Shown here in pieces: positions 1,151-36,783 of a stretch of DNA of 64,000 nt. A program made the translations under genes and the position numbers. Within the stretch, counting starts at the first letter, position 1. Each line of letters opens with the position of its first letter. The notes below the pieces were generated by a model. That model made no database searches. It was not told where the DNA came from and saw only the letters and a program-made list of their open reading frames with translations. Origin of the DNA: Torpedo marmorata (Eukaryota); assembly GCA_977017645.1 (NCBI GenBank), contig OZ360222.1, positions 179,614,001 through 179,678,000 of the forward strand, read 5' to 3'.

Positions 1151-4100
1151 CTAGTCCCACCTACCTGCACCCTGCCCATAACCCTCCACTTCCTTCTCAT
1201 CCATATACCTGTCCAACTTTTTCTTAAATAATAAAATTGACTCTGCCGCCACTACTTCTCCCGGAAGCTCATTCCACACCGCTACCACTCTCTGAGTAAA
1301 GAAGTTCCCCCTCATGTTACCTCTAAACCTCTGCCCCTTAACTCTTAACTCATGTCCTCTTGTTTCAATCTCTCCTACTCTTAACGGAAATAGTCTATCC
1401 ACGTCCACTCTGTCTATCCCTTTCATAATCTTAAATACCTCTATCAAATCCCCTCTCAACCTTCTACGCTCCAAAGAATAAAGACCTAATATGCTCAATC
1501 TCTCCTTGTACTCTAGATGCTTAAACCCAGGTAACATTCTGGTAAATCTTCTCTGCACTCTCTCCACTCTGTTGATATCCTTCCTATAATTTGGCGACCA
1601 GAACTGCACAGAGAACTCTAAACGAGACCGCACCAACGCCTTATATAATCTCAACATCACTTCCCAACTCCTATATTCTATGCAATGATTGATAAATGCC
1701 AGCATACTAAAAGCCTTCTTCACTACCCTATTCACATGAGTTTCTACCTTCAGGGAACGATGCACCGTTATTCCTAAATCTTTCTGCTCTTCTGTATTCA
1801 TCAATGCTCTCCCATTTACTACGTATGTCCTGTTCTGATTCTTCTTACCAAAATGAAGCACCTCACACTTATCAGCATTAAACTCCATTTGCCATTTTTC
1901 AGCCCACTTTTCTAAGCAGCCCAAATCCCTCTGCAATCCTTGAAAACCTTCTTCATTATCCACTATTCCACCTATCTTAGTATCGTCTGCATATTTACTA
2001 ATCCAGTTCACCACCCCATCATCTAGATCATTAATGTATATCACGAACAACAATGGGCCCAATACAGATCCCTGAGGCACACCGCTGGTCACCGGCCTCC
2101 AACCTGACAGACAATTATCCACTACCACTCTCTGGCCTTTCCCTTTCAGCCAATGTTCAATCCATTTGACTATCTCAAAATTTATACCTAAAGACTGCAC
2201 CTTCCTAACTAACCTTCCATGTGGTACCTTATCGAAGGCCTTACTGAAGTCCATATAGACAACATCCACCGCGCTACGCTCATCCACATTCCTAGTCACC
2301 TCTTCAAAAAATTCAATCAGATTGGTCAAACAGGACCTTTCGCTCACAAATCCATGTTGAGTGTTCCTGATCAGACCCTGTCTATCCAGATATTTATAAG
2401 TACTATCTCTAAGAACTTTCTCCATTAATTTACCTACCACAGACGTCAAACTTACAGGCCGATAATTGCCAGGCTTCCTCCTTGAACCCCTTTTAAATAA
2501 CGGAACCACATGCGCAATACGCCAATCCTCCGGCACTATCCCCATCTCTAATGACATTTGGAAAATCACCGTCAGAGCCTCTGCTATTTCCTCACTTATT
2601 TCTCTCAAGGTCCTGGGGAAGATCCTGTCGGGTCCCGGAGACTTATCCACCTTTATATGCCTCAAAAGCCCTAACACTACATCTTTCGTAATCACTATAT
2701 TCTCCATATTTACCCAATTTGCTTTTTTTATCTCGCATATCCCAATATCCTTCTCCTTGGTGAATACCGAAGAAAAGAAACTGTTCAATATCTCCCCCAT
2801 TTCTCTAGGCTCCACACACAGTTTTCCACTCTGATTCTCTAAGGGACCAATTTTGTCCCTCGCTTTCCTTTTACCATTAACGTATTTGTAGAAACCTTTT
2901 GGATTAATTTTCACCCTGCTTGCTATAGTCTCCTCGTACCTTCTTTTAGCTTTCCTAATTCCTCTCTTAAGATTCCTTTTACATTCAATGTATTTTTCAA
3001 ACATCTCCTTAATTCCATGCTTCTTATACTTAATGTACGCCTCCCTTTTTTTTCGAACCAAGTTTCCAATATTCCTCGAAAACTACGGCTCTCTCAAACC
3101 TTTTGCCCCTCCTTTTAACCTAACAGGTACATAAAGCTTTTGCACTCTCAAAATCTGATCTTTAAAAGACTTCCATCTCTCTACTACATCCTGCCCATAA
3201 AACAAATTGTCCCAATGCACATCCTGTAAGTCCTTTCGCATCTCCTCAAATCTAGCTTTTCCCCAATCAAATACCTCAACCCTTGGCCCTGACTTATCTC
3301 TTTCCATAATGACATTGAAGCTGATGGCATTATGATCACTGGACCCGAAGTGCTCGCCAACACAAACCTCCGTCACTTGACCTATCTCATTTGCCAACAG
3401 TAGATCTAACACTGCTCCTTCTCTGGTCGGTACCTCTACATATTGTTGTAAAAAACTATCCTGCACACATTTCACAAACTCCAACCCATCCAGCCCTTTC
3501 ACAGAATGTGTTTCCCAATCTATATGTGGAAAATTAAAATCTCCCATAATTACAACCCTGTGCTTATCACAAATATCCACTATCTCCCTACAGATTTGCT
3601 CCTCTAGGTCTCGGTCCCCTCCGGGTGGTCTATAATACACCCCTACAAGTGTAACTTCTCCTTTCCCACTCCTCAGTTCTACCCAAATAGCCTCCGTAGA
3701 CGAGCCCTCTAATCTATCCTGCCTAAGCACTGCTGTAATATTCTCCCTGACAAGCAATGCAACACCACCTCCTCTTGCCCCTCCGACTCTATCACACCTA
3801 AAGCAACGAAACCCAGGGATATTCAGCTGCCAATCACATCCCTCCTGCAACCATGTCTCACTAATCGCTACCACATCATACTTCCAAGTATCAATCCACA
3901 CCTTCAGCTCATCCACCTTTTTTACAATACTCCTGGCATTAAATATATGAATTTCAGAGATTTCCCACTTCTTAATCTCTGTTTGCCCTCATCTTTAGTA
4001 ACAACATTATTATTTACTTTTTCTGCCAATTGCCCTTCATCTTCATCCAGAGCATTTCCCTTCTCTATCACCTGCCCATCCATATTCAAACACTGACTAC

Positions 4101-17258: not shown

Positions 17259-17512
17259 TGGTAAACCACTGTTGTATGAACTATGGGGCTGGGGATAAGT
17301 CTGAGCACGCCCTGCTGTCTATCCCGGTGGCTCCTCCCCCTTCCTCCCTGAATAAAGGCCTTGAGCCACTGACCCCTCCTCCAGTTCTGGGATAGTCCAG
17401 CAGGTCTCAGCAGGTTAACTGTGACTTAACCTAGGCTCTGTCTTACTGCTAATAAAAGCCTTTCGATCTCCCATTACTTCCTGCCTCTGGTAAGTCATTG
17501 ATAGGTGTATCA
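17259..17512 (+). repeat. 5' LTR of Gypsy A
   Basis: Direct repeat of 21643-21896, ending gtatca. Confidence 0.95.
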
Positions 17513-17536
17513 ATTTTATTAGCAGTAAAAAGCCTG

Positions 17537-20500
17537 ATGGAGAACGTTTTGAGACCGGACAAGTTGGATATCGATCCCCTGGCTCAAGATGCCGCTAGCG
17601 CTTTCGAACTCTGGCTGCGCTGTTTCCGACCATTCCTGCGGTCGATCAGACAACGAGGACGACAAACTGAACATCCTCATGTCCAGGGTAAGCCCTCGTG
17701 TGTATACAACCGTTTGAGACTGCCAGACCTACGAGGAAGCTATGCAAGCCCTAAAGAGACTGTACTTAACGCCCGTGAACGCGGTCTACGCGAGACACCG
17801 GCTATCGCAACAGCGCCTGCGCCCCAGTGAGTTGATCTCCGAATTCATTCAAGACGTGCAGTCGCTGGTGCGAGCGTGCGACTGCAGAGCGCTGACGGCT
17901 GAGCAGCACGCTGATCTGCTAGCAAGGGACACTTTCATCATGGGGATCAGGTCGGCATACATGCGCCAGCGATTGCTGGAGCGCGTCGATCTGACCCTCA
18001 AATCCGCTGTCCAGACGGCCCTCACGCTGGAGGCTGCGCTGAGAAACTCAGACGCTATGCAGGCGCAGCCTGCCTCGTGGACAGCCCCAACCGCCAGCCC
18101 TGCAAGCGAGATGACCGCCGCTGCTGTCTGCCGCGACCCGATCGCCGCCGCCGCCACCATCCGTGAACTCGCCGCCGCCGCCGCTGCCCGAGAGCCCGCC
18201 ACCGCCATCCGTGAGTTAACCGCCGCGGCCGTTACCCGAGAGCCCGAGAAGTGTTACTTTTGCGGGCTCGACAAACATCCGCGCAAACGCTGCCCGGCCC
18301 GAGACGCGACTTGCTCCAGTTGCGGCAAGAAAGGCCACTACGCTAAGGCCTGCTGCACCAGGCCGCGTGCGGTTCCGAGCAGCGCCGCGTGCGAAGTGAG
18401 GGAGCGGCCATCTTACCTATTGTCACTTCCGGCGGCGACCTCGTGCGAGGAATGGAGGCGGCCATCTTGGACCCCGGCACTTCTGGCACCGGCACTTCCG
18501 GCGCGGCCATTTTACAGTCTCACGTCTGCACTTCCGGCACTTCCGGCGCCGCCATCTTGTAGCTCCAGCCGCGACACGTGCGACCCACGGGGGCAGCCAT
18601 CTTTGCCAGCGTCGGATCAAGACTACACGTCGGATCAAGACTACGTCCCGACCCTGGCGTCGGTCACACTCGATCAGAGCGCGCCCCACCAGCTGTCCAG
18701 ATCTATGATGGACATACTAGTCAAGGGGCGCAAGACTACCTGCCTGTTCGATACAGGCAGCACCGAAAGCTTCATTCACCCAGACACTGTCCAGCGCTGT
18801 GGCCTCACGACTGTACCGGTAAGCCAGAGGGTGGCCATGGCGTCTGGGTCGCACACAACGGACATCCGGGGGGGTTGTGTGGCGAACATTGTAGTACAGG
18901 GCACAGAATATCGGGACTTTTCATTACTCGTCATGCCTCGTTTGTGTGCGCCTGTACTGCTGGGACTTGACTTTCAGAGTCACCTACGAAGCGTCACCAT
19001 GCGCTACGACGGGCCCCACCCTCCGATCACAGTGACTAACCACCAGTACCTGAACAATACGCCCCAGACTACCTGTGGCCTCTCCACGCTTAAGATCCCG
19101 CCCCCGTCACTCTTCGCCAACCTGACCCCCGACTGTAAGCCCGTGGCAACCAAGAGCAGGCGATACAGCGCGGGGGACAGGGTGTTCATCAAGGCGGAGG
19201 TGAAACGCCTACTGGGGGAGGGGATCATCGAACCCAGTAACAGCCCCTGGAGAGCCCAGGTAGTCGTGGTAAAGAATGGGGCCAAGAGCCGGATGGTGGT
19301 GGACTATAGTCAGACTATCAATCGGTTTACGCAATTGGATGCCTACCCGTTGCCGCGAATAGCGGATATGGTCAATCAAATTGCACAGTACAGACTGTTC
19401 TCAACTATAGACTTAAAGTCGGCTTATCACCAGCTCCCGATCCGCCGGGAAGACCGCGCGTACACCGCCTTTGAGGCGGACGGCAGGTTGTTCCATTTCC
19501 TGCGCGTCCCCTTCGGAGTCACAAATGGGGTGTCCGTGTTCCAGCGGGAGATAGACAGGATAGTCAACCAATTTAAACTGAAAGCCACGTTCCCGTACCT
19601 GGACGACATCACCATATGTGGTCATGATCGCCAGGATCACGATAAGAACCTTCGGAGGTTCCTGCAGGTGGCCGAGGCGCTAAACCTCACCTATAATAAG
19701 GAGAAGTGCGTGTTCGGGACTACCCGACTCGCCATTCTGGGGTGCGTCGTGGAGAACGGGGTGATTGGACCCGACCCCGACCGCATGCGGCCCCTGCTGG
19801 AACTTCCGATTCCTCATACCCCCAAAGCCCTTAAACGATGCCTCGGGTTCTTCTCATATTATGAGCAGTGGGTTCCAAACTATGCGGATAAAGCCCGACC
19901 CCTCGTCAAATCCACCAAGTTTCCCCTTGCTTCGGAGGCACGTGAGGCTTTTGACCTCATAAAAGGGGACATTGCCCGAGCAGCAATGCACGCGGTGGAC
20001 GAGTCGGTACCTTTTCAGGTAGAGAGTGACGCATCGGACTTCGCGCTGGCTGCTACCCTCAACCAGGCGGGAAGACCGGTAGCGTTTTTCTCACGGACCC
20101 TCCAAGGCCCCGAAATTCGGCACTCCGCGGTTGAGAAAGAGGCCCAGGCCATAGTAGAGGCTATCAGGCACTGGAGGCACTATCTCGCCGGCAAGCATTT
20201 TATCCTGCTGACAGATCAACGCTCTGTCGCGTTTATGTTTAACAACCAGCAGCGGGGTAAGATCAAAAATGATAAAATCATGAGGTGGAGAATAGAACTC
20301 TCCACCTACAATTACGACATCCTTTACCGGCCCGGGAAGCTCAACGAGCCCCCCGATGCTCTAACCCGGGGGTCGTGCGCCAGCGCGCAGATCGACCGGT
20401 TACACGCCCTCCATTGTGACCTCTGCCACCCGGGAGTTACCAGGCTCTTTCACTTCGTTAAGGCACGGAACCTGCCGTACTCCCTGGAAGAGGTCAGGAC

Positions 20501-21506
20501 TATGACCAGCAGCTGCTGAGTCTGTGCGGATTGCAAACCGCAATTCTACCGCCCCGACAAGGCACAGCTGGTCAAGGCCACCTGCCCTTTCGAACGTCTT
20601 AGTATCGACTTCAAGGGCCCCCTCCCTTCCACGAACCGCAATGTGTACTTCCTCAATATTATTGATGAATACTCGCGGTTCCCCTTCGCCATCCCCTGCC
20701 CCGATACCTCGGCCACCTCTGCTATTAAAGCTCTTCGCCAGGTATTCACAATATTTGGTTTCCCCAACTATGTCCATAGCGACCGGGGATCAGCGTTTAT
20801 GAGTGAGGAACTGCGGCAGTACTTGCAGACCCGAGGCATCGCCACCAGTAGAACCACGGGGTACAACCCACGGGGAAACGGGCAGGTGGAGAGGGAGAAT
20901 GCTACCGTGTGGAAGGCCACGCTCCTGGCCCTCAAATCAAAAGGGTGGCCAGTAGCCCATTGGCAGGAAGTTCTCCCGGATGCCCTCCACTCCATACGGT
21001 CCCTGTTGTGTACCTCTACTAATGCCACCCCTCACGAACGCATCTTTTCCTTCCCCAGAAAGTCGACCACCGGAACCACCCTCCCTGCCTGGCTGACGTC
21101 CCCGGGACCTGTGCTACTCCGCAAGCACCTTCGGAGTAGCAAATACGATCCCATGGTCGAGAGGGTGCAGCTGACCCACGCGAATCCGCAGTATGCCTAT
21201 GTGGTCTTCCCTGATGGGCGGGAAGACACGGTATCGATACGGGACCTGGCGCCTGCAGGAGCGCCGGAAGAGGTCCCCAACAGCGAGAACGCCTGGTCGC
21301 AGCTGTTTCCCCCGTCTCCCCCACCCCCCAGCACGGCAGGCCCAGCACCCTCGCTGGGGCTGGATGGTCCACAAGCCAGGCAGGAGACAATCCTGCCATC
21401 CCCTTCTCCATCACTACCACCCCAACCACCATCGCCCGCCCCTTCACCACAGGTTCTACGCAGGTCGCAGCGGCGGATTCGACCGCCAGATAGGCTCGAC
21501 CTGTAA
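17537..21506 (+). pseudogene. gag-pol: Gypsy A gag-pol polyprotein (frameshift near 17640, TGA at 20517-20519)
   Basis: Starts MENVLRPDKL. Two Zn knuckles (CYFCGLDKHPRKRC, CSSCGKKGHYAKAC), protease LFDTGS, RT YLDD, RNase H SDAS...EKEA, integrase HHCC and SIDFKG...HSDRG...VER. ORFs 17742..20519 and 20643..21506 are in the same frame. Confidence 0.95.
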
Positions 21507-21640
21507 ATGTAACTGTAACTGTAATTGTAACTGTATATATATTTGTATATATCTGTCTACATGCGATACGCGTCTTGTGTGTGTAAATAATCACGGTAGC
21601 CACGTCACCCCGGTGGACTCTTTTAAAAAGGAGGGGTGAA

Positions 21641-21896
21641 TGTGGTAAACCACTGTTGTATGAACTATGGGGCTGGGGATAAGTCTGAGCACGCCCTGCT
21701 GTCTATCCCGGTGGCTCCTCCCCCTTCCTCCCTGAATAAAGGCCTTGAGCCACTGACCCCTCCTCCAGTTCCGGGATAGTCCAGCAGGTCTCAGCAGGTT
21801 AACTGTGACTTAACCTAGGCTCAGTCTTACTGCTAATAAAAGCCTTTCGATCTCCCATTACTTCCTGCCTCTGGTGAGTCATTGATAGGTGTATCA
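21641..21896 (+). repeat. 3' LTR of Gypsy A
   Basis: TG...CA, 256 bp, directly preceded by the PPT. Confidence 0.95.
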
Positions 21897-26965: not shown

Positions 26966-29655
26966 TGCTGGAAGTAAAGCACGAAAGTCTGCAGACACCG
27001 TGGTTGAAGTATAAACACAATGATGGAGAAACAGTGCCCTTTATATAGCAAAGATAAAGGTACATAACCGACGTTTTGGGCTTGAGCCCTTCATCATGGT
27101 AAGGAAAAATGTCGGCAGGCTTCCAAACTAAAAGGTAAGGGGGAGACGTGGGGGGAGGAGCACGGTCCCAAAGGCAGGAGGTAATAGGTGGAGAAGGGAG
27201 GGAGGGCACAGCAGCAAGCAGGGAGAGGAGGGATGGCTAGGTGAATAGAGAGGGAAGGGGATGGAGAGCTGTGGGAAAGAAGATAGGGGGAAGGGAAATG
27301 AGGGAGAAAGGAGAGCAGGTTAGCAGAAACTGGAGAAGTCGATGTTACTGCCATCTGGCTGGAGAGTGTCCAGACGGAAAATCAGGTGTTGTTCCTCCAA
27401 TTTACAGGTGGTCTTGGTGCGATAGTTCATGAGGCCAAGGACAGACATGTGAGTATGGGAGTGTGACACAGAACTGAAATGGTTGGCCACTGGGAGGTCC
27501 CTGTCACTGGTGCGGACAGAGCGAAGGTGCTCAGCGAAGTGTTGCTTCACTTGAAAGGCCTGTTTGGGGCCCCGGACTGTGGTGAGGGAGGAGGTGTGGG
27601 CACAAGGGTGGTACCTCCTGTGACCACAGGGAAGGTGCCGGAGGGCGATTGGTGGGGAGCGATGAGTGCACAAGGAGTCATGGAGGGAGCAGTCCCTATG
27701 GAAGGTAGAGGGGGAGGAGAGGGGAAGATGTGTCTGGTAGTGAGTGCCAGAAATTCCAGAGGATAATATGTTGGATGCGGAGGCTGGTGGGGTGGTAGGT
27801 AAGGATAAGAGGAATCCTGTGTTTATTGCGTCTGGGGGCAGAGGGGGCTAGGGCAGATGAGCGGGAAATGGAGGAGATGCAGGTGAGGGCTGAGTTGATG
27901 GTGGTGGAGGGGAAGCCACGTTTTTGGAAGAAGGCAGACATTTCAGAAGATCTGGACTGGAAGACCGCATCTTGGGAACAGATGCGGCAGAGACGGAGAA
28001 ATTGCGAGAAGGGAATAGAATCCTTGCAGGGGACAGGGTGTGAGGAAATGTAGTCGAGGTAGTTGTGGGAGTTGGTGGGTTTGGAAAAAATGTCGGTGGA
28101 AAGCTTGTCTCCCGAGATGGAGACAGAGAGATCCAGAAAGGGGAGAGTGTTGTCGGAGATGGACCAGGTGAGTTTGAGATCGGAGTGGAAGTTGGCAGCG
28201 AAGTGAATGAAGTTGACAAGCTCATCTCAGGTGCATGAGGCAGCCCCGATGTAGTCATCAATATAGCAGTTGAGGGGCCTTGCCTGTGTAGGCTTGCAGC
28301 ATGGATTGCTCCACAAAGCCCACAAACATGCAGGCATAGCTGGGACCCATGGCTACTCCTTTGATTTGGAGGAAGTGAGAGGAGTCAAAGGAGAAGTTAT
28401 TTAGAGTGAGGACAATTTCTGCCAGGTGGAGGAAGGTGGTGGTAGAGGCAGTGGCGGATTAACTTAATCCATAATAGAATTAGTTTATAGATTGGTATTC
28501 TCCTTACTCTATCTTTTTCTTTCTTTTTACTTCTTCTTTTTCTATTTTTATTTTCTATTTTTATTTTTATTAGATTAGTGGGGTTGGGAGGGTTGGGGAG
28601 GGGAGGGGGGTGAAAATATATCACAAATACTTTGATAATTTTATATTTTATTTTATGTATTTTGTGATTTAAAAATTTTAAATAAAATATTTTTTTTTAA
28701 AAACTACCACCCAGGCCCCAAGGCTGAGCTTTAGTAAGGCTCCCCTGACCTTGCCCCCCTGCCCCACCATTCATTTAATAGAATAAAGTGACATTAAGTT
28801 ACATTAAATAACATATTAGGGGTCTCCAAAGTGGTCGATATCAACCCTTGGGGGGTCAATGGCACTATCCATGGGGTCAGAAAATGGCAGGGGGTCGAAA
28901 GGGGGTCGATAAACGCCGGGGGTTGATTGAACTTTTGGGGTCGAAAGAATTGTAGAGCCCGAGGTCCCCACTCCTGCCAGGAGCCCGATGTCCTCCCTTC
29001 TGCCGGAATCCCGAGGTCCCCGCTCCTGCCGGGCCCCTTTCCTTCTGGACCCCTAGGCTTAAGCCTATTCAGCCTAATGGTTAATCTGCCACTGGGTAGA
29101 GGGTGACTGGTCAGGTCTCTGGTCCAGAAAGAAACTAAGTGCTTTGAGACCTTCTGTATGGGGGATGGAGGTATAAAGGGATTGGACATCCATATTAAAA
29201 ATGAGGCAGTCAAGTTCAGGGAATTTTAAGTAATTTAAGAGATGGAGGGCATGTGAGGTATCATGGATGTAGGTGGGGAGGGATTGGACCAGGGGAGAAA
29301 AGATAGAGTCAAGGTAAGATGAAACTATTTCAGTGGGGCAAGAGTAAGCGGAAACATTGGGTCTACTCGGATGGTTGGGTTTGTGTATCTTGGGTAAAAG
29401 GTAGAACCGGGCAGTGCGAGGATGGGAGACAATGAGGTTGGTGGCCATGGGAGGGAGGTGACCAGAGGTGATGAGGTTGGAGATGGTGTTGGAGATGGTG
29501 GCTTGATGAGCTGTGGTGGGGTCCTGTGGAAGGTATAAGTAGGAGGAGGTGTCTGAGAGCTGTCGTCTGGCCTCAGCAAGGTAGACGTCAGTGTGCCAGA
29601 CCACAATAGCACCTTCCTTGTCTGCAGGTTTGATGGTGAGGTTGTTTGCGCTCAG
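26966..29655 (-). mobile_element. Penelope-like element (Neptune-type RT + GIY-YIG), degraded and interrupted by a hAT
   Basis: TIKPADK...FYLLPKIHK...DVQSLYTSIPH (29074..29661) and KLEEQHLIFRL.TLQPDG C-terminus; 3' UTR with hammerhead-like motif at ~27068-27100. Confidence 0.92.
28449..29094. mobile_element. Non-autonomous hAT-type transposon carrying a nested L1 3' end
   Basis: TIRs cagtggcggattaac / gttaatctgccactg and 8-bp TSD ggtagagg (28441-28448 / 29095-29102). ~28464-28700 resembles the family A L1 3' UTR. Confidence 0.9.
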
Positions 29656-32185: not shown

Positions 32186-32437
32186 TGTGGTGAACCACTG
32201 TGTTTGTATTTGTGGTGTATATAGGTATTACAGGCCGGACTGATGTCTACTCCCTCCCCTCCCTTGGGTGTCCAGGTAATCCCTCCCCCTTCCTCACCTG
32301 AATAAAGGCCACTGTATCTCGGCCACCCCTCCAGTCCGGATCTGATCGAGTAGGAAGCACGGCTTCATTCTTAGTTAATAAAAGCCTATGATTCACTCGC
32401 TCTCACAGTCTTTGAGTGGTTATTGATAGGCCTATCA
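32186..32437 (+). repeat. 5' LTR of Gypsy B
   Basis: Direct repeat of 36532-36783. Confidence 0.96.
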
Positions 32438-32462
32438 ATTTTATTAACTAAGAATACATCTG

Positions 32463-35400
32463 ATGGAAGGAGCACTAAGACCGGCTATCCTCGACATCGA
32501 TCACCTAGCCCCCGACGCTAGTAACGCCTTCGAACACTGGCTGCGATGCTTGGAATCATTCATGTTCACCGTCCAAGCCATAAGTGAGGATCAATGACTG
32601 AGAGTCCTCATCTCCAGGGTGAGCTCACGAGTTTTCACAACGATAAGAGACTGCGAAACTTACACTGAGGCTATGGACGCCCTGAAGGGAATCTACTTGT
32701 CGCCAGTCAACGCGGTCTACGCACGATACCGACTCTACTCCCGAATGCAGCGAGCTGGGGAATCAACGGTGGAATACGTCAGGGACATACAGTCACTAGC
32801 ACGAGCGTGTGATTGTAAAGCCCTGACTGCTGAGGAACATTTGCGAGTGGTGGAGCGAGATGCGTTCATCATGGGGCTCAGGTCGGTATATGTGCGCCAG
32901 AGACTGCTAGAGCACGCCGACCTGGACTTTCGGAAGGCAGTAGCGATGGTCCGCACGCTGGAGACCGCGCAGCGGAACTCCGATGCTATGCAGGTACGCA
33001 ACCCCCAGCCCGCAACGTGGTCGGCCCCATCTCCCAGCCCTGCGAACGAGATGACCGCCGCTGCCGCCATCCGTGCCGATCCGATCGCTACCGCGATCCT
33101 CACCGCCGCTGCAGCCAGCCGCGAGCCCGAGAAGTGTTACTTCTGCGGGCTTGATAAGCACCCGCGGAAGCGCTGCCCGGCCCGCGACGCGACTTGTTCC
33201 GGATGCGGCAGGAAAGGCCATTACGTGAAGGCCTGCCGCTCCAAGTCGCGCCCGGGTCTGAGCAGCGCCGCGTGCGAGCTGCGGGGGCAGCCATCTTACC
33301 TGCGGCAGCTTCCGGAATCGGCCTCGTGCGAGCTGCGGGGGCAGCCATCTTACCTGCGGCAGCTTCTGGAATCGGCCTCGTGCGAGCTGCGGGGGCAGCC
33401 ATCTTACCTGCGGCAGCTTCCGGAATCGGCCTCGTGCGAGCTGCGGGGGCGGCCATCTTTGATGCTGGCACTTCCGGCGCCACCCACGTCAGTACTTCCG
33501 GCTATACTACCGCCGCCATCTTACAGCGGCAGCAGCAGCGACACGTGCGAGCCACGGGAGCAGCCATTTTTGTCGGCAGTAGAAGAAGATGAAGAATACA
33601 TCGCGACTCTTGCTTCAGTCACCCTCGACCAGAGCATCCCTCACCAGTTATCGAGATCCATGATGGACATTCTGGTGGAGGGACATAAAACCACCTGTCT
33701 CTTCGATACGGGCAGTACGGAGAGTTTCATCCAGCGCTGTGGCCTCACCACTATACCGGTAAGCCAGAGGGTGGCCATGGCGTCTGGGTCACACATAACA
33801 GACATCCGGGGGGCTTGTGTGGCTGATATTGTGGTACAGGGGACTAAGTATAAACATTTTTCTTTATTTATAATGAATCGTTTGTGTGCACCTGTATTGT
33901 TGGGACTTGATTTTCAGAGCCACTTGCGCAGTGTTACTATGCGGTACGATGGTCCCCACCCTGCGATCACTGTAGTCAACCACCAGTTCCTTAATAATGA
34001 GCCCCAGACTACCTGTGGCCTCTCCACTCTTAAGATCTCGCCTCCGTCGCTATTCACCAACCTGACCCCTGACTGTAAGCCTGTTGCAACCAAGAGCAGG
34101 CGATACAGTTCGGGGGACAGGGCGTTTATCAAGGCGGAGGTACAGAGGTTGCTACAAGAGGGGATTATTGAAAGGAGCAATAGTCCCTGGAGGGCCCAGG
34201 TGGTTGTGGTAAAAGGGGCCAAGAGTAGGATGGTGGTGGACTACAGTCAGACGATTAACCGGTTCACCCTGTTGGACGCATACCCGCTACCAAGAATAGC
34301 GGATATGGTTAATCAGATCGCTCAGTATAAGGTCTTTTCTACTATCGACCTGAAGTCCGCGTACCATCAGCTCCCTATCCGTCGGGAGGACCGCCAGTAC
34401 ACTGCGTTCGAGGCTGATGGGAGACTGTTCCACTTCCTGCGGGTCCCGTTCGGGGTGACTAATGGTGTTTCTGTGTTCCAGCGGGAGATGGATAACATTG
34501 TAGATGTATATAAACTTAAAGCCACCTTCCCGTACCTGGACGATATCACCATCTGTGGAATGGATCGCCAGGATCACGACACCAATCTCCGGAAGTTCCT
34601 GCAGGCGGCAAAAGCACTAAACCTGACATACAATAAGGAAAAATGTGTGTTTGGTACCACGCGCCTCGCTATTTTGGGGTACGTGGTAGAGAACGGGGTG
34701 ATTGGGCCAGACCCCGATCGCATGCGCCCCCTATTGGAACTTCCACTACCCTCCACCCCCAAAGCACTCAAGCGATGCCTCGGGTTCTTTTCGTATTATG
34801 CACAATGGGTACCGAATTATGCAGATAAGGCCCGACCCCTGGTGAAATCCACCGTATTTCCCCTTGACTCGGAGGCACGTAAGGCCTTTGACCTTATAAA
34901 AGGGGACATTGCGCGAGCAACAATGCACGCGGTGGATGAGGAGATACCTTTCCAGGTAGAGAGTGACGCGTCGGACTTCGCGCTGGCTGCTACCCTCAAC
35001 CAAGCGGGAAGGCCGGTGGCGTTTTTCTCACGCACCCTTCAAGGCCCTGAAATTCGGCACTCCGCGGTGGAGAAGGAAGCCCAGGCCATAGTGGAAGCAA
35101 TCAGGCACTGGAGGCACTATCTCGCCGGCAAGCATTTTACCCTGCTGACCGACCAACGCTCGGTAGCATTTATGTTCAGCAACCAGCAGCGGGGTAAAAT
35201 CAAAAACGACAAAATCATGAGGTGGAGAATAGAACTTTCCACCTATAACTACGACATCCTCTACCGGCCCGGGAAGCTCAATGAGCCCTCAGACGCTCTA
35301 TCCCGGGGATCATGCGCCAGCGCGCAGGTCGACCGATTACACGCCCTACATGACCTCCTCTGTCACCCAGGAGTTACCAGGCTTTTTCACTTTGTGAAGG

Positions 35401-36445
35401 CACAGAACCTGCCATACTCCCTGGAGGAGGTCAGGACATTGATCAGAGGCTGTCGTGTTTGCGCAGAGTGCAAACCCCAGTTCTACCGCCCGGACAGGGC
35501 ACAGCTGATCAAAGCCACACGCCCCTTTGAACGTCTTAGCATTGACTTCAAGGGGCCCCTTCCCTCCACGAACCGCAACGTGTACTTCTTAAACATTGTT
35601 GACGAGTACTCGCGGTTCCCCTTTGCCATCCCCTGCCCCGACACTTCAGCGACCTCAACCATAAAAGCTCTCCACCAGGTATTCACGCTGTTTGGTTTCC
35701 CAAACTACATTCATAGCGACCGGGGAGCAGCTTTTATGAGTGAGGAGCTGCGCCGGTACCTGCAGGACCGAGGCATCGCCACCAGCAGGACAACAGCACG
35801 AGGAAATGGGCAGGTGGAAAGGGAGAACGCTACGGTATGGAAGGCCGCGCTCCTAGCCCTTAAGTCAAAGGGCTGGCCGGTCTCCCACTGGCAGGATGTT
35901 CTCCCTGAAGCCCTCCACTCTATCCGGTCCCTACTGTGCACTTCCACCAACGCAACCCCTCATGAACGATTTTTTTCCTTCCCAGGAAGTCGACCACCGG
36001 GACCTCCCTACCTGCCTGGCTGATGTCCCCGGGACCAGTGCTGCTCCGCAACCACCTTCGGAGCAGCAAATATGAACCGACGGTTCAGAGGGTGCAGTTG
36101 GCGCACGCCAACCCCCAATATGCGTACGTGGTCTTCCCGGATGGACGAGAGGACACAGTCTCCATCCGAGACCTGGCGCCCGATGGGGCGCCAGAGGGGC
36201 ATTCCGACGGGCAAGACCACTTACTGCAAAACACACCGCAACCCCTTCCTAACGCCCCACCCGATGTGTTAGACCCCGCCCCCTCAACGGGACCGCAAGA
36301 GTTCCGAGAGGCCAGGCAGGAGGCGACGGCACAGACGAACCTACCACCTCCCCCATCACTAATATCTTCCCCAGCACCACAGCCCGACCCGCCACTACGC
36401 AGGTCACAGCGGAAAATTCGACCGCCGGATCGCCTTGACCTGTAA
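32463..36445 (+). pseudogene. gag-pol: Gypsy B gag-pol polyprotein (TGA at 32595-32597, frameshift near 35985)
   Basis: Starts MEGALRP, in frame with ORF 32619..36023; same Zn knuckle, PR, RT, RH and IN motifs as element A. The C-terminus is in ORF 36023..36445 (LRRSQRKIRPPDRLDL). Small in-frame deletions relative to A in PR and IN. Confidence 0.95.
33268..33460 (+). repeat. 54-bp tandem repeat (~3.5 copies) in the gag-protease linker
   Basis: Unit cgtgcgagctgcgggggcagccatcttacctgcggcagcttccggaatcggcct, encoding SCELRGQPSYLRQLPESA. Confidence 0.92.
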
Positions 36446-36531
36446 AAAGGAGGGTCTGTATGTATATATGTATTGTGTAATTAGAGTGGTCACGTCACCC
36501 CGCTGGACTCTTTCTAAAAAGGAGGGGTGAA

Positions 36532-36783
36532 TGTGGTGAACCACTGTGTTTGTATTTGTGGTGTATATAGGTATTACAGGCCGGACTGATGTCTACTCCC
36601 TCCCCTCCCTTGGGTGTCCAGGTAATCCCTCCCCTTTCCTCACCTGAATAAAGGCCACTGTATCTCGGCCACCCCTCCAGTCCGGATCTGATCGAGTAGG
36701 AAGCACGGCTTCATTCTTAGTTAATAAAGGCCTATGATTCACTCGCTCTCACAGTCTTTGAGTGGTTATTGATAGGCCTATCA
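36532..36783 (+). repeat. 3' LTR of Gypsy B
   Basis: TG...CA, preceded by the PPT and followed by the TSD. Confidence 0.96.

What the first reader, a model, noticed from the sequence alone, without database searches (positions are those of the whole stretch)
17443..17528. Gypsy A: PBS is complementary to its own LTR poly(A)-signal segment (candidate self-priming)
Seen: after the 5' LTR end (CA, 17512) and one A there is no TGG tRNA-type PBS. Instead TTTTATTAGCAGTAA (17514-17528) is the exact reverse complement of TTACTGCTAATAAAA (17443-17457) inside the LTR. The polarity puts the 3' end of the LTR segment next to U5, as a minus-strand primer requires. The intervening U5 can extend the stem (gcctttcgat / attgataggt) or form TTGATA-ggtg-TATCAA, and the gag ATG follows at 17537. 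Established: self-priming is known in the Tf1/sushi chromovirus group, where the primer is the extreme 5' end of the RNA. Inference: this element has no chromodomain and two Zn knuckles, and the putative primer ends in the AATAAA signal itself. This may be an independent self-priming system in which one duplex also hides the 5' poly(A) signal. I cannot confirm whether it is already described.
Basis: partly seen in the sequence, partly recalled or inferred. Interest (0 to 1): 0.88.

Follow-up and report, generated by a model that had tools for sequence, protein, structure and literature searches.

The report
Self-priming Gypsy clade outside Tf1/sushi
This jumping gene and dozens of distant relatives in animals carry, where a host tRNA normally docks, a sequence that pairs with their own end-repeat, so they likely start copying themselves with a piece of their own RNA, a trick proven in the yeast element Tf1, from whose group they are separate.

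Summary
It is a trait of a whole clade. Of 54 scored relatives, 44 have an exact duplex of 11 bp or more at the same place; shuffle maxima were 7-11. Thirty family representatives show 29 different 11-mers, none with a TGG start. The LTR arm ends ...AAA|RCCT, one spacer base follows the LTR's CA, and RCCT pairs in U5 (23 of 30; null 7.6). RT-RNase H trees put the clade outside chromoviruses, and grouping it with Tf1/sushi-type elements is rejected (AU p=0.007). Best reading: Tf1-like self-priming (0.85). Limits: the start site, poly(A) site and cleavage were not measured. AATAAA/ATTAAA lies in the arm in only 18 of 30 families, so hiding the poly(A) signal is at most a side role. I could not name the clade. 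Ten literature searches found no report for it, but the key older papers were not held. This scan found the same signature before on other DNA.

The parts
17259..17512 (+). 5' LTR of Gypsy A (family LTR is 256 bp, TG...CA; this copy lacks the first two bases)
   Evidence: 3 differences in 254 bp from the 3' LTR
17351..17356 (+). second AATAAA, upstream in the LTR; role unknown
   Evidence: present in all 5 host family representatives and 74 of 80 family-B 5' LTRs
17443..17457 (+). predicted self-primer arm; holds AATAAA at 17451-17456; predicted cut after 17457
17458..17461 (+). conserved RCCT motif, 5' arm of the second helix
   Evidence: G21/A7, C27, C28, T24 of 30
17503..17506 (+). AGGT, 3' arm of the second helix in U5
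17513..17513 (+). one-base spacer between LTR end and primer site
   Evidence: 1 nt in 29 of 30 families, A in 27
17514..17528 (+). primer-binding site, exact complement of 17443-17457
17537..21506 (+). gag (2 CCHC)-PR-RT-RNase H-IN coding region, no chromodomain; in this copy broken by a frame change in gag and a stop at 20517-20519
21625..21640 (+). polypurine tract and bases next to the 3' LTR
21641..21896 (+). 3' LTR of Gypsy A
32367..32383 (+). primer arm of a second family in the window (Gypsy B; LTRs 32186-32437 and 36532-36783, 5-bp TSD)
32439..32455 (+). primer-binding site of Gypsy B, 17-bp complement with different letters

Best explanation
This is a Ty3/Gypsy retrotransposon of a chromodomain-less animal clade whose primer site is complementary to its own LTR, and which likely primes reverse transcription with its own RNA. 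Shown: the duplex, its fixed position one base after the LTR's CA, its covariation across families, the ...AAA|RCCT boundary and a second helix in U5. [quoted passage not shown] The RNA's 5' end folds onto the primer site, the element's RT/RNase H cuts between the last A and the R of RCCU at the two-helix junction, and the freed 3' OH starts minus-strand DNA. Plus-strand copying of that primer would then rewrite the primer site in each cycle, keeping both arms Watson-Crick. Where the arm holds AATAAA or ATTAAA, the duplex may also mask it in the 5' LTR; I treat that as a side role.
For: Exact duplex of 11 bp or more in 44 of 54 scored loci (39 of 48 metagenome loci), shuffle maxima 7-11. 29 distinct 11-mers in 30 representatives; a site matches another family's LTR 11/11 in only 2 of 870 comparisons. 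The arm's 3' end faces U5 at a fixed register. No TGG in 30 of 30, and at most 7 nt of internal match to 28 host tRNA sequences for the 5 host families. Second helix of 4 bp or more starting right after the arm in 23 of 30; null mean 7.6, maximum 16 in 1000 shuffles. Compensated changes between near-identical copies (L037 against L034/L035). In host family B (4267 junctions) a C/T site in the arm follows a G/A site in the primer site, with only 50 C/A and 60 T/G copies, and the pair switches at least twice on a gag tree. G-U pairs are 2 of 390 in the main duplex against 8 of 98 in the second helix. Precedent: Tf1 and Tj1 (PMC4600332; 10.1101/2022.12.06.519325) and copia TAR (PMC6317226).
Against: No RNA evidence: no RNA holder was listed and only contigs could be laid. 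The 30 representatives were chosen for 11 or more exact pairs, so pairing and the lack of G-U at the first 11 positions are partly by selection. Ten of 54 loci missed the cut-off. Discordant family-B copies split 12 (LTRs differ) to 8 (both LTRs agree, primer site differs) among the 20 of 40 with a readable 3' LTR; plain mutation after insertion would give about that, so templated rewriting is not proven. The two flanking duplexes of the Tf1 pretzel are not found (0 of 30 each). Primer length is ambiguous: AG or TG sits 11 nt before the boundary in 25 of 30, yet pairing runs on to -13 (26 of 30) and -16 (19 of 30).
Confidence: 0.85

Rival explanations
1. The duplex is a regulatory hairpin (masking the 5' poly(A) signal or controlling translation of the nearby gag ATG), and priming uses a host RNA.
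For: AATAAA or ATTAAA lies in the arm in 18 of 30 families; the ATG is only 15-47 nt after the LTR end; only 9 anticodon types of host tRNA were tested.
Against: 12 of 30 have no canonical hexamer in the arm but keep the duplex. 29 different site sequences follow their own LTR, which a fixed host primer cannot do. The duplex occupies exactly the primer-site register.
Confidence: 0.06
2. Self-priming, but the primer comes from the 3' LTR copy of the arm (same or co-packaged RNA) or from a longer 5' leader, not from the extreme 5' end.
For: Both LTRs carry the arm; the start site is unmapped; host families have a second AATAAA 83-107 nt upstream that could be a promoter-like or a 3'-end signal.
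Against: Pairing falls to background at -17 (7 of 29), as expected if copying stops at an RNA 5' end close by; Tf1 uses the 5' end (PMC4600332).
Confidence: 0.08
3. On origin (compatible with the best explanation): the mechanism is shared by descent with Tf1/sushi, an ancient trait kept in two distant Gypsy branches, not an independent invention.
For: Same logic and similar primer size (11 nt for Tf1 is recalled); PMC3601003 proposes that LTR ancestors were hairpin-primed; my trees are unrooted and the clade has a long stem.
Against: Tf1/sushi-type rows are nested in chromoviruses (99/99 within 100/97), most plant members of which use tRNA (PMC6317226), so many losses would be needed. The structures differ (no pretzel; one spacer base, whereas a five-base motif at the start of the Tf1 site follows the LTR in PMC11042837). 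Self-priming is predicted separately in copia TAR (PMC6317226).
Confidence: 0.25

Closest known systems
Tf1/Tf2 (S. pombe), Tj1 and the Tf1/sushi group of chromoviruses
   Same: Primer site just after the 5' LTR is complementary to an LTR segment; no tRNA site; an extra helix next to the predicted cut; Ty3/Gypsy domain order; 5-bp TSD here.
   Different: No chromodomain; two CCHC knuckles; RT-RNase H outside chromoviruses, AU p=0.007; two-helix junction with ...AAA|RCCT, not the three-duplex pretzel; 13-16 bp typical duplex; the arm often holds the poly(A) hexamer.
Tcn1 clade (Gypsy) and TAR/Houba/Osr-1 lineage (Copia), self-priming predicted from sequence (PMC6317226)
   Same: Same kind of evidence: primer site complementary to own LTR; TAR shows the trait outside chromoviruses.
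   Different: Tcn1 is Tf1/sushi-related; TAR is Copia in plants. Neither is an animal non-chromovirus Gypsy.
Mag lineage and Cigr-1/MolGy clades (PMC6238403)
   Same: The clade joins the tree next to rows I label Mag-like (93/89; label from recalled gag features). Size of 4.0-4.6 kb, short LTRs and a single ORF recall Cigr-1 (from memory).
   Different: No named reference sequence was available, so identity with any named clade is untested; the passages read give no primer-site data.

Membership tests
Ty3/Gypsy (Metaviridae) | LTRs TG...CA, PPT, TSD, gag-PR-RT-RH-IN order | tested here: met
   the window copy itself lacks the first TG and a TSD
Tf1/sushi group | chromodomain at the integrase C-terminus | tested here: not met
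   no PF00385 hit in the window integrase frame or in 22 full-length relatives at E 0.05
Tf1/sushi group | RT-RNase H groups with fungal and vertebrate chromoviruses | tested here: not met
   AU p=0.0069. References were labelled by chromodomain and host name; Tf1 and sushi-ichi themselves were not in the tree
Tf1/sushi group | primer site complementary to own LTR | tested here: met
Tf1/sushi group | three-duplex pretzel with helices on both sides of the primer site | tested here: not met
   0 of 30 significant for either flanking duplex; definition from 10.1101/2022.12.06.519325
Self-primed LTR elements (works-like) | primer segment is the 5' end of the transcript | not testable with these tools
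   no RNA holder listed; contigs only
Self-primed LTR elements (works-like) | RT/RNase H cleaves the RNA to free the primer | not testable with these tools
   needs biochemistry; the conserved AAA|RCCT boundary is indirect
tRNA-primed LTR elements | TGG-initial site complementary to a tRNA 3' end | tested here: not met
   0 of 30
half-tRNA-primed elements | site complementary to an internal tRNA stretch, constant among families | tested here: not met
   best 5-7 nt against 28 sequences of 9 anticodon types, a partial set; 29 different sites
Mag / Cigr-1 / MolGy clades | groups with named reference elements | not testable with these tools
   no named reference was stored; adjacent to Mag-like rows only

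The most novel reading that the evidence does not exclude
A widespread animal Gypsy clade (sea anemone to rays) has invented self-priming independently of Tf1/sushi, with its own two-helix cleavage junction (...AAA|RCCU); in most families the primer is the very stretch that carries the poly(A) signal, so one duplex both makes the primer and silences 5' polyadenylation.
Probability: 0.45. Interest if true: 0.78.

Novelty: new variant of a known kind. Interest (0 to 1): 0.6.

Why it matters
In the papers I could read, self-priming among Gypsy elements is tied to Tf1/sushi and its relative Tcn1. A second large Gypsy clade with the trait, thousands of copies strong in one vertebrate genome, makes an open question testable: is tRNA-free priming ancestral or repeatedly invented? 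It gives a second natural substrate, with a conserved boundary motif, for learning how a reverse transcriptase cuts RNA to make its own primer. It also predicts elements that tRNA-fragment silencing cannot reach and that annotation tools requiring a tRNA site will miss.

Tried and rejected
Viral contigs gave no relatives. No RNA holder was listed; the two runs laid were contigs and show no start or end. A search for poly(A)-tailed retrocopies gave two loci after the arm's AATAAA and none after the upstream one. L379 has no similarity to the family. L376/L388 is a truncated copy ending in an A run, with no TSD and, by eye, inverted flanks, so I rejected it as a poly(A)-site marker. A Chromo search of the host genome gave 15 matches, none with an integrase hit, so no in-genome sushi control was available. 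Pretzel side duplexes were not found. The test for templated primer sites in discordant copies was inconclusive (12:8). The careful 70-row tree did not finish and returned the quick tree; the careful tree has 33 rows. One search used a miscounted gap and was not used. In one search the L162 row had wrong coordinates and the alignment was not used for counts. L043 passed in an off register. Lin and Levin 1997 and 1998, Levin 1996 and Atwood-Moore 2006 were not held; Butler 2001 and the Cigr-1 paper were not looked up by id. PMC2774666 had no hits for my terms. The earlier-findings search by sequence and a second one by words were empty.

Full report
Observation. The 15-mer at 17514-17528 is the exact reverse complement of 17443-17457; the chance within this LTR is about 5e-7. 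The LTRs are 17259-17512 and 21641-21896, with 3 differences in 254 bp. The LTR ends in CA, one A follows, then the site; the gag ATG is at 17537. Domains run gag (two CCHC), PR, RT, RNase H, IN, with no chromodomain. This copy is decayed: a frame change in gag, a stop at 20517-20519, no first TG and no TSD. A tight pattern finds 370 LTR-to-site junctions of this family in the genome. The closest named proteins are from rays, up to 83% identical, with more distant ones from a shark and a sea anemone, so the host is probably a ray (inference).

Is it a clade trait? I fetched 80 metagenome loci; 49 had a locatable gag start and 48 had enough upstream sequence. With 6 host representatives, a rule blind to the motif (any CA within 60 nt of gag, 0-2 spacer bases) found an exact complement of 11 nt or more in 44 of 54; per-locus shuffle maxima were 7-11. 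Of the ten misses, five (L033, L044, L072, L103, L124) are copies of families with perfect members. L092 and L078 are imperfect, L057 and L061 lie near contig ends, and L081 has a doubtful gag start. A second family in the same window has a 17-bp duplex with other letters (32367-32383 with 32439-32455).

Anatomy across families. I chose 30 representatives from the passing loci, so pairing at -1 to -11 is by selection. They hold 29 different 11-mers, and one family's site matches another's LTR fully in 2 of 870 tests. Watson-Crick pairing continues at -12 (29 of 30), -13 (26), -14 (20), -15 (21), -16 (19) and drops to 7 of 29 at -17. Conserved letters are A at -1, -2 and -3 (29 of 30 each), G at -10 (26) and RCCT directly after the arm. 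The spacer is one base in 29 of 30; the arm ends 20-68 nt before the LTR end. RCCT starts a helix of 4 bp or more with U5 in 23 of 30 (null mean 7.6, maximum 16). The two duplexes beside the site that make the Tf1 pretzel (10.1101/2022.12.06.519325, passages read) are absent (0 of 30 each).

tRNA. None of 30 sites starts with TGG; for the five host families the best internal match to 28 host tRNA sequences is 5-7 nt. That set covers only 9 anticodon types. The stronger argument is that 29 different sites each follow their own LTR.

Within-family covariation. Host family B has 4267 junctions. A C/T site in the arm follows a G/A site in the primer site; only 50 copies are C/A and 60 T/G (anchors differ slightly between these patterns). 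On a tree of 520 nt of gag from 80 copies the concordant pair switches twice. The wobble state T/G is hardly commoner than the mismatch C/A, which fits rewriting of the site from the primer better than slow selection on an RNA stem. However, of 40 discordant copies fetched, 20 had a readable 3' LTR, and these split 12 with differing LTRs to 8 with agreeing LTRs; mutation after insertion could give this. I count it as compatible, not as proof.

Poly(A) signal. The arm holds AATAAA in 10, ATTAAA in 8 and neither in 12 of 30. Three of those 12 have a canonical hexamer downstream in U5 and one upstream. All five host representatives have a second AATAAA upstream (17351-17356 here). A hunt for poly(A)-tailed retrocopies gave nothing usable. 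So masking is plausible for about 60% of families but is not the conserved core.

Phylogeny. RT-RNase H trees of 111 rows (FastTree), 70 rows (quick) and 33 rows (careful, PMSF) agree. In one search the clade has 100/100, chromoviruses 100/97, and fungal plus vertebrate chromodomain elements 99/99 within them. The clade joins between Mag-like rows (93/89) and the rest (93/93). Forcing it together with the fungal/vertebrate group costs 39.8 log-likelihood units (AU p=0.0069). Caveats: long stem, no root, references labelled by Pfam chromodomain and host name, Tf1 and sushi-ichi themselves absent, and the Mag-like label rests on recalled gag features.

Mechanism. I commit to Tf1-like self-priming (0.85): the RNA's 5' end pairs with the site, RT/RNase H cuts at AAA|RCCU beside the second helix, and the freed end primes minus-strand DNA one base from U5. 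The duplex, register, covariation and motif are shown; start site, cut and priming are inferred. Primer length is open: AG or TG at -11/-10 in 25 of 30 suggests a start near -11, while pairing to -16 suggests longer or mixed starts.

Literature. Ten searches listed no paper reporting self-priming in an animal non-chromovirus Gypsy clade; I saw most hits only as listings. I read passages of PMC6317226 (self-priming in Tf1/sushi, Tcn1 and copia TAR), PMC4600332, 10.1101/2022.12.06.519325 (supplements closed), PMC5341516, PMC11042837, PMC3601003, PMC6238403 (one supplement), PMC5006619, PMC6934838, PMC13524379 (supplement search), PMC3670739 and PMC3587641. PMC2774666 had no hits (111). Four Levin-lab papers were not held, and Butler 2001, the Cigr-1 paper and Repbase notes were not seen, so earlier notice there cannot be excluded. 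Four unchecked notes from this scan report the same signature in other genomes; they are not independent support.

Verdict. Real and general: a new variant of a known mechanism in a Gypsy clade outside Tf1/sushi. Interest 0.6; 0.78 if independent origin and the dual poly(A) role hold.

Noticed in passing
window 32186-36783: Second Gypsy family of the same clade, 99% identical LTRs and 5-bp TSD, with its own 17-bp self-complementary site and a 54-bp tandem repeat in gag.
   Followed up: yes
window 17350-17360: The upstream AATAAA and the bases after it resemble the arm's end and the RCCT boundary, perhaps an old internal duplication or a second 3'-end signal; kept in all five host families.
   Followed up: partly
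window 17490-17495: Splice-donor-like GTAAGT (GTGAGT in most copies) in U5 of this family; not seen at that place in the other host families.
   Followed up: no
L086, L092, L093, L094, about 25-35 nt upstream of the arm's 5' end: Pyrimidine run ending in TTCAG, like a splice or trans-splice acceptor, in several related metagenome elements.
   Followed up: no
L333, L278 (family B): 5' and 3' LTRs carry different U5 haplotypes although the target-site duplication matches, suggesting gene conversion or two-template origin.
   Followed up: no
P0209-P0307: Many metagenome chromovirus-like polyproteins carry a precomputed PF00856 hit (SET domain, name recalled) together with a chromodomain.
   Followed up: no
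window 1151-3988 (-) and 27320-28384 (-): A CR1-like LINE with endonuclease and RT frames, and a decayed Penelope-like RT; both labels are by eye from the translations.
   Followed up: no
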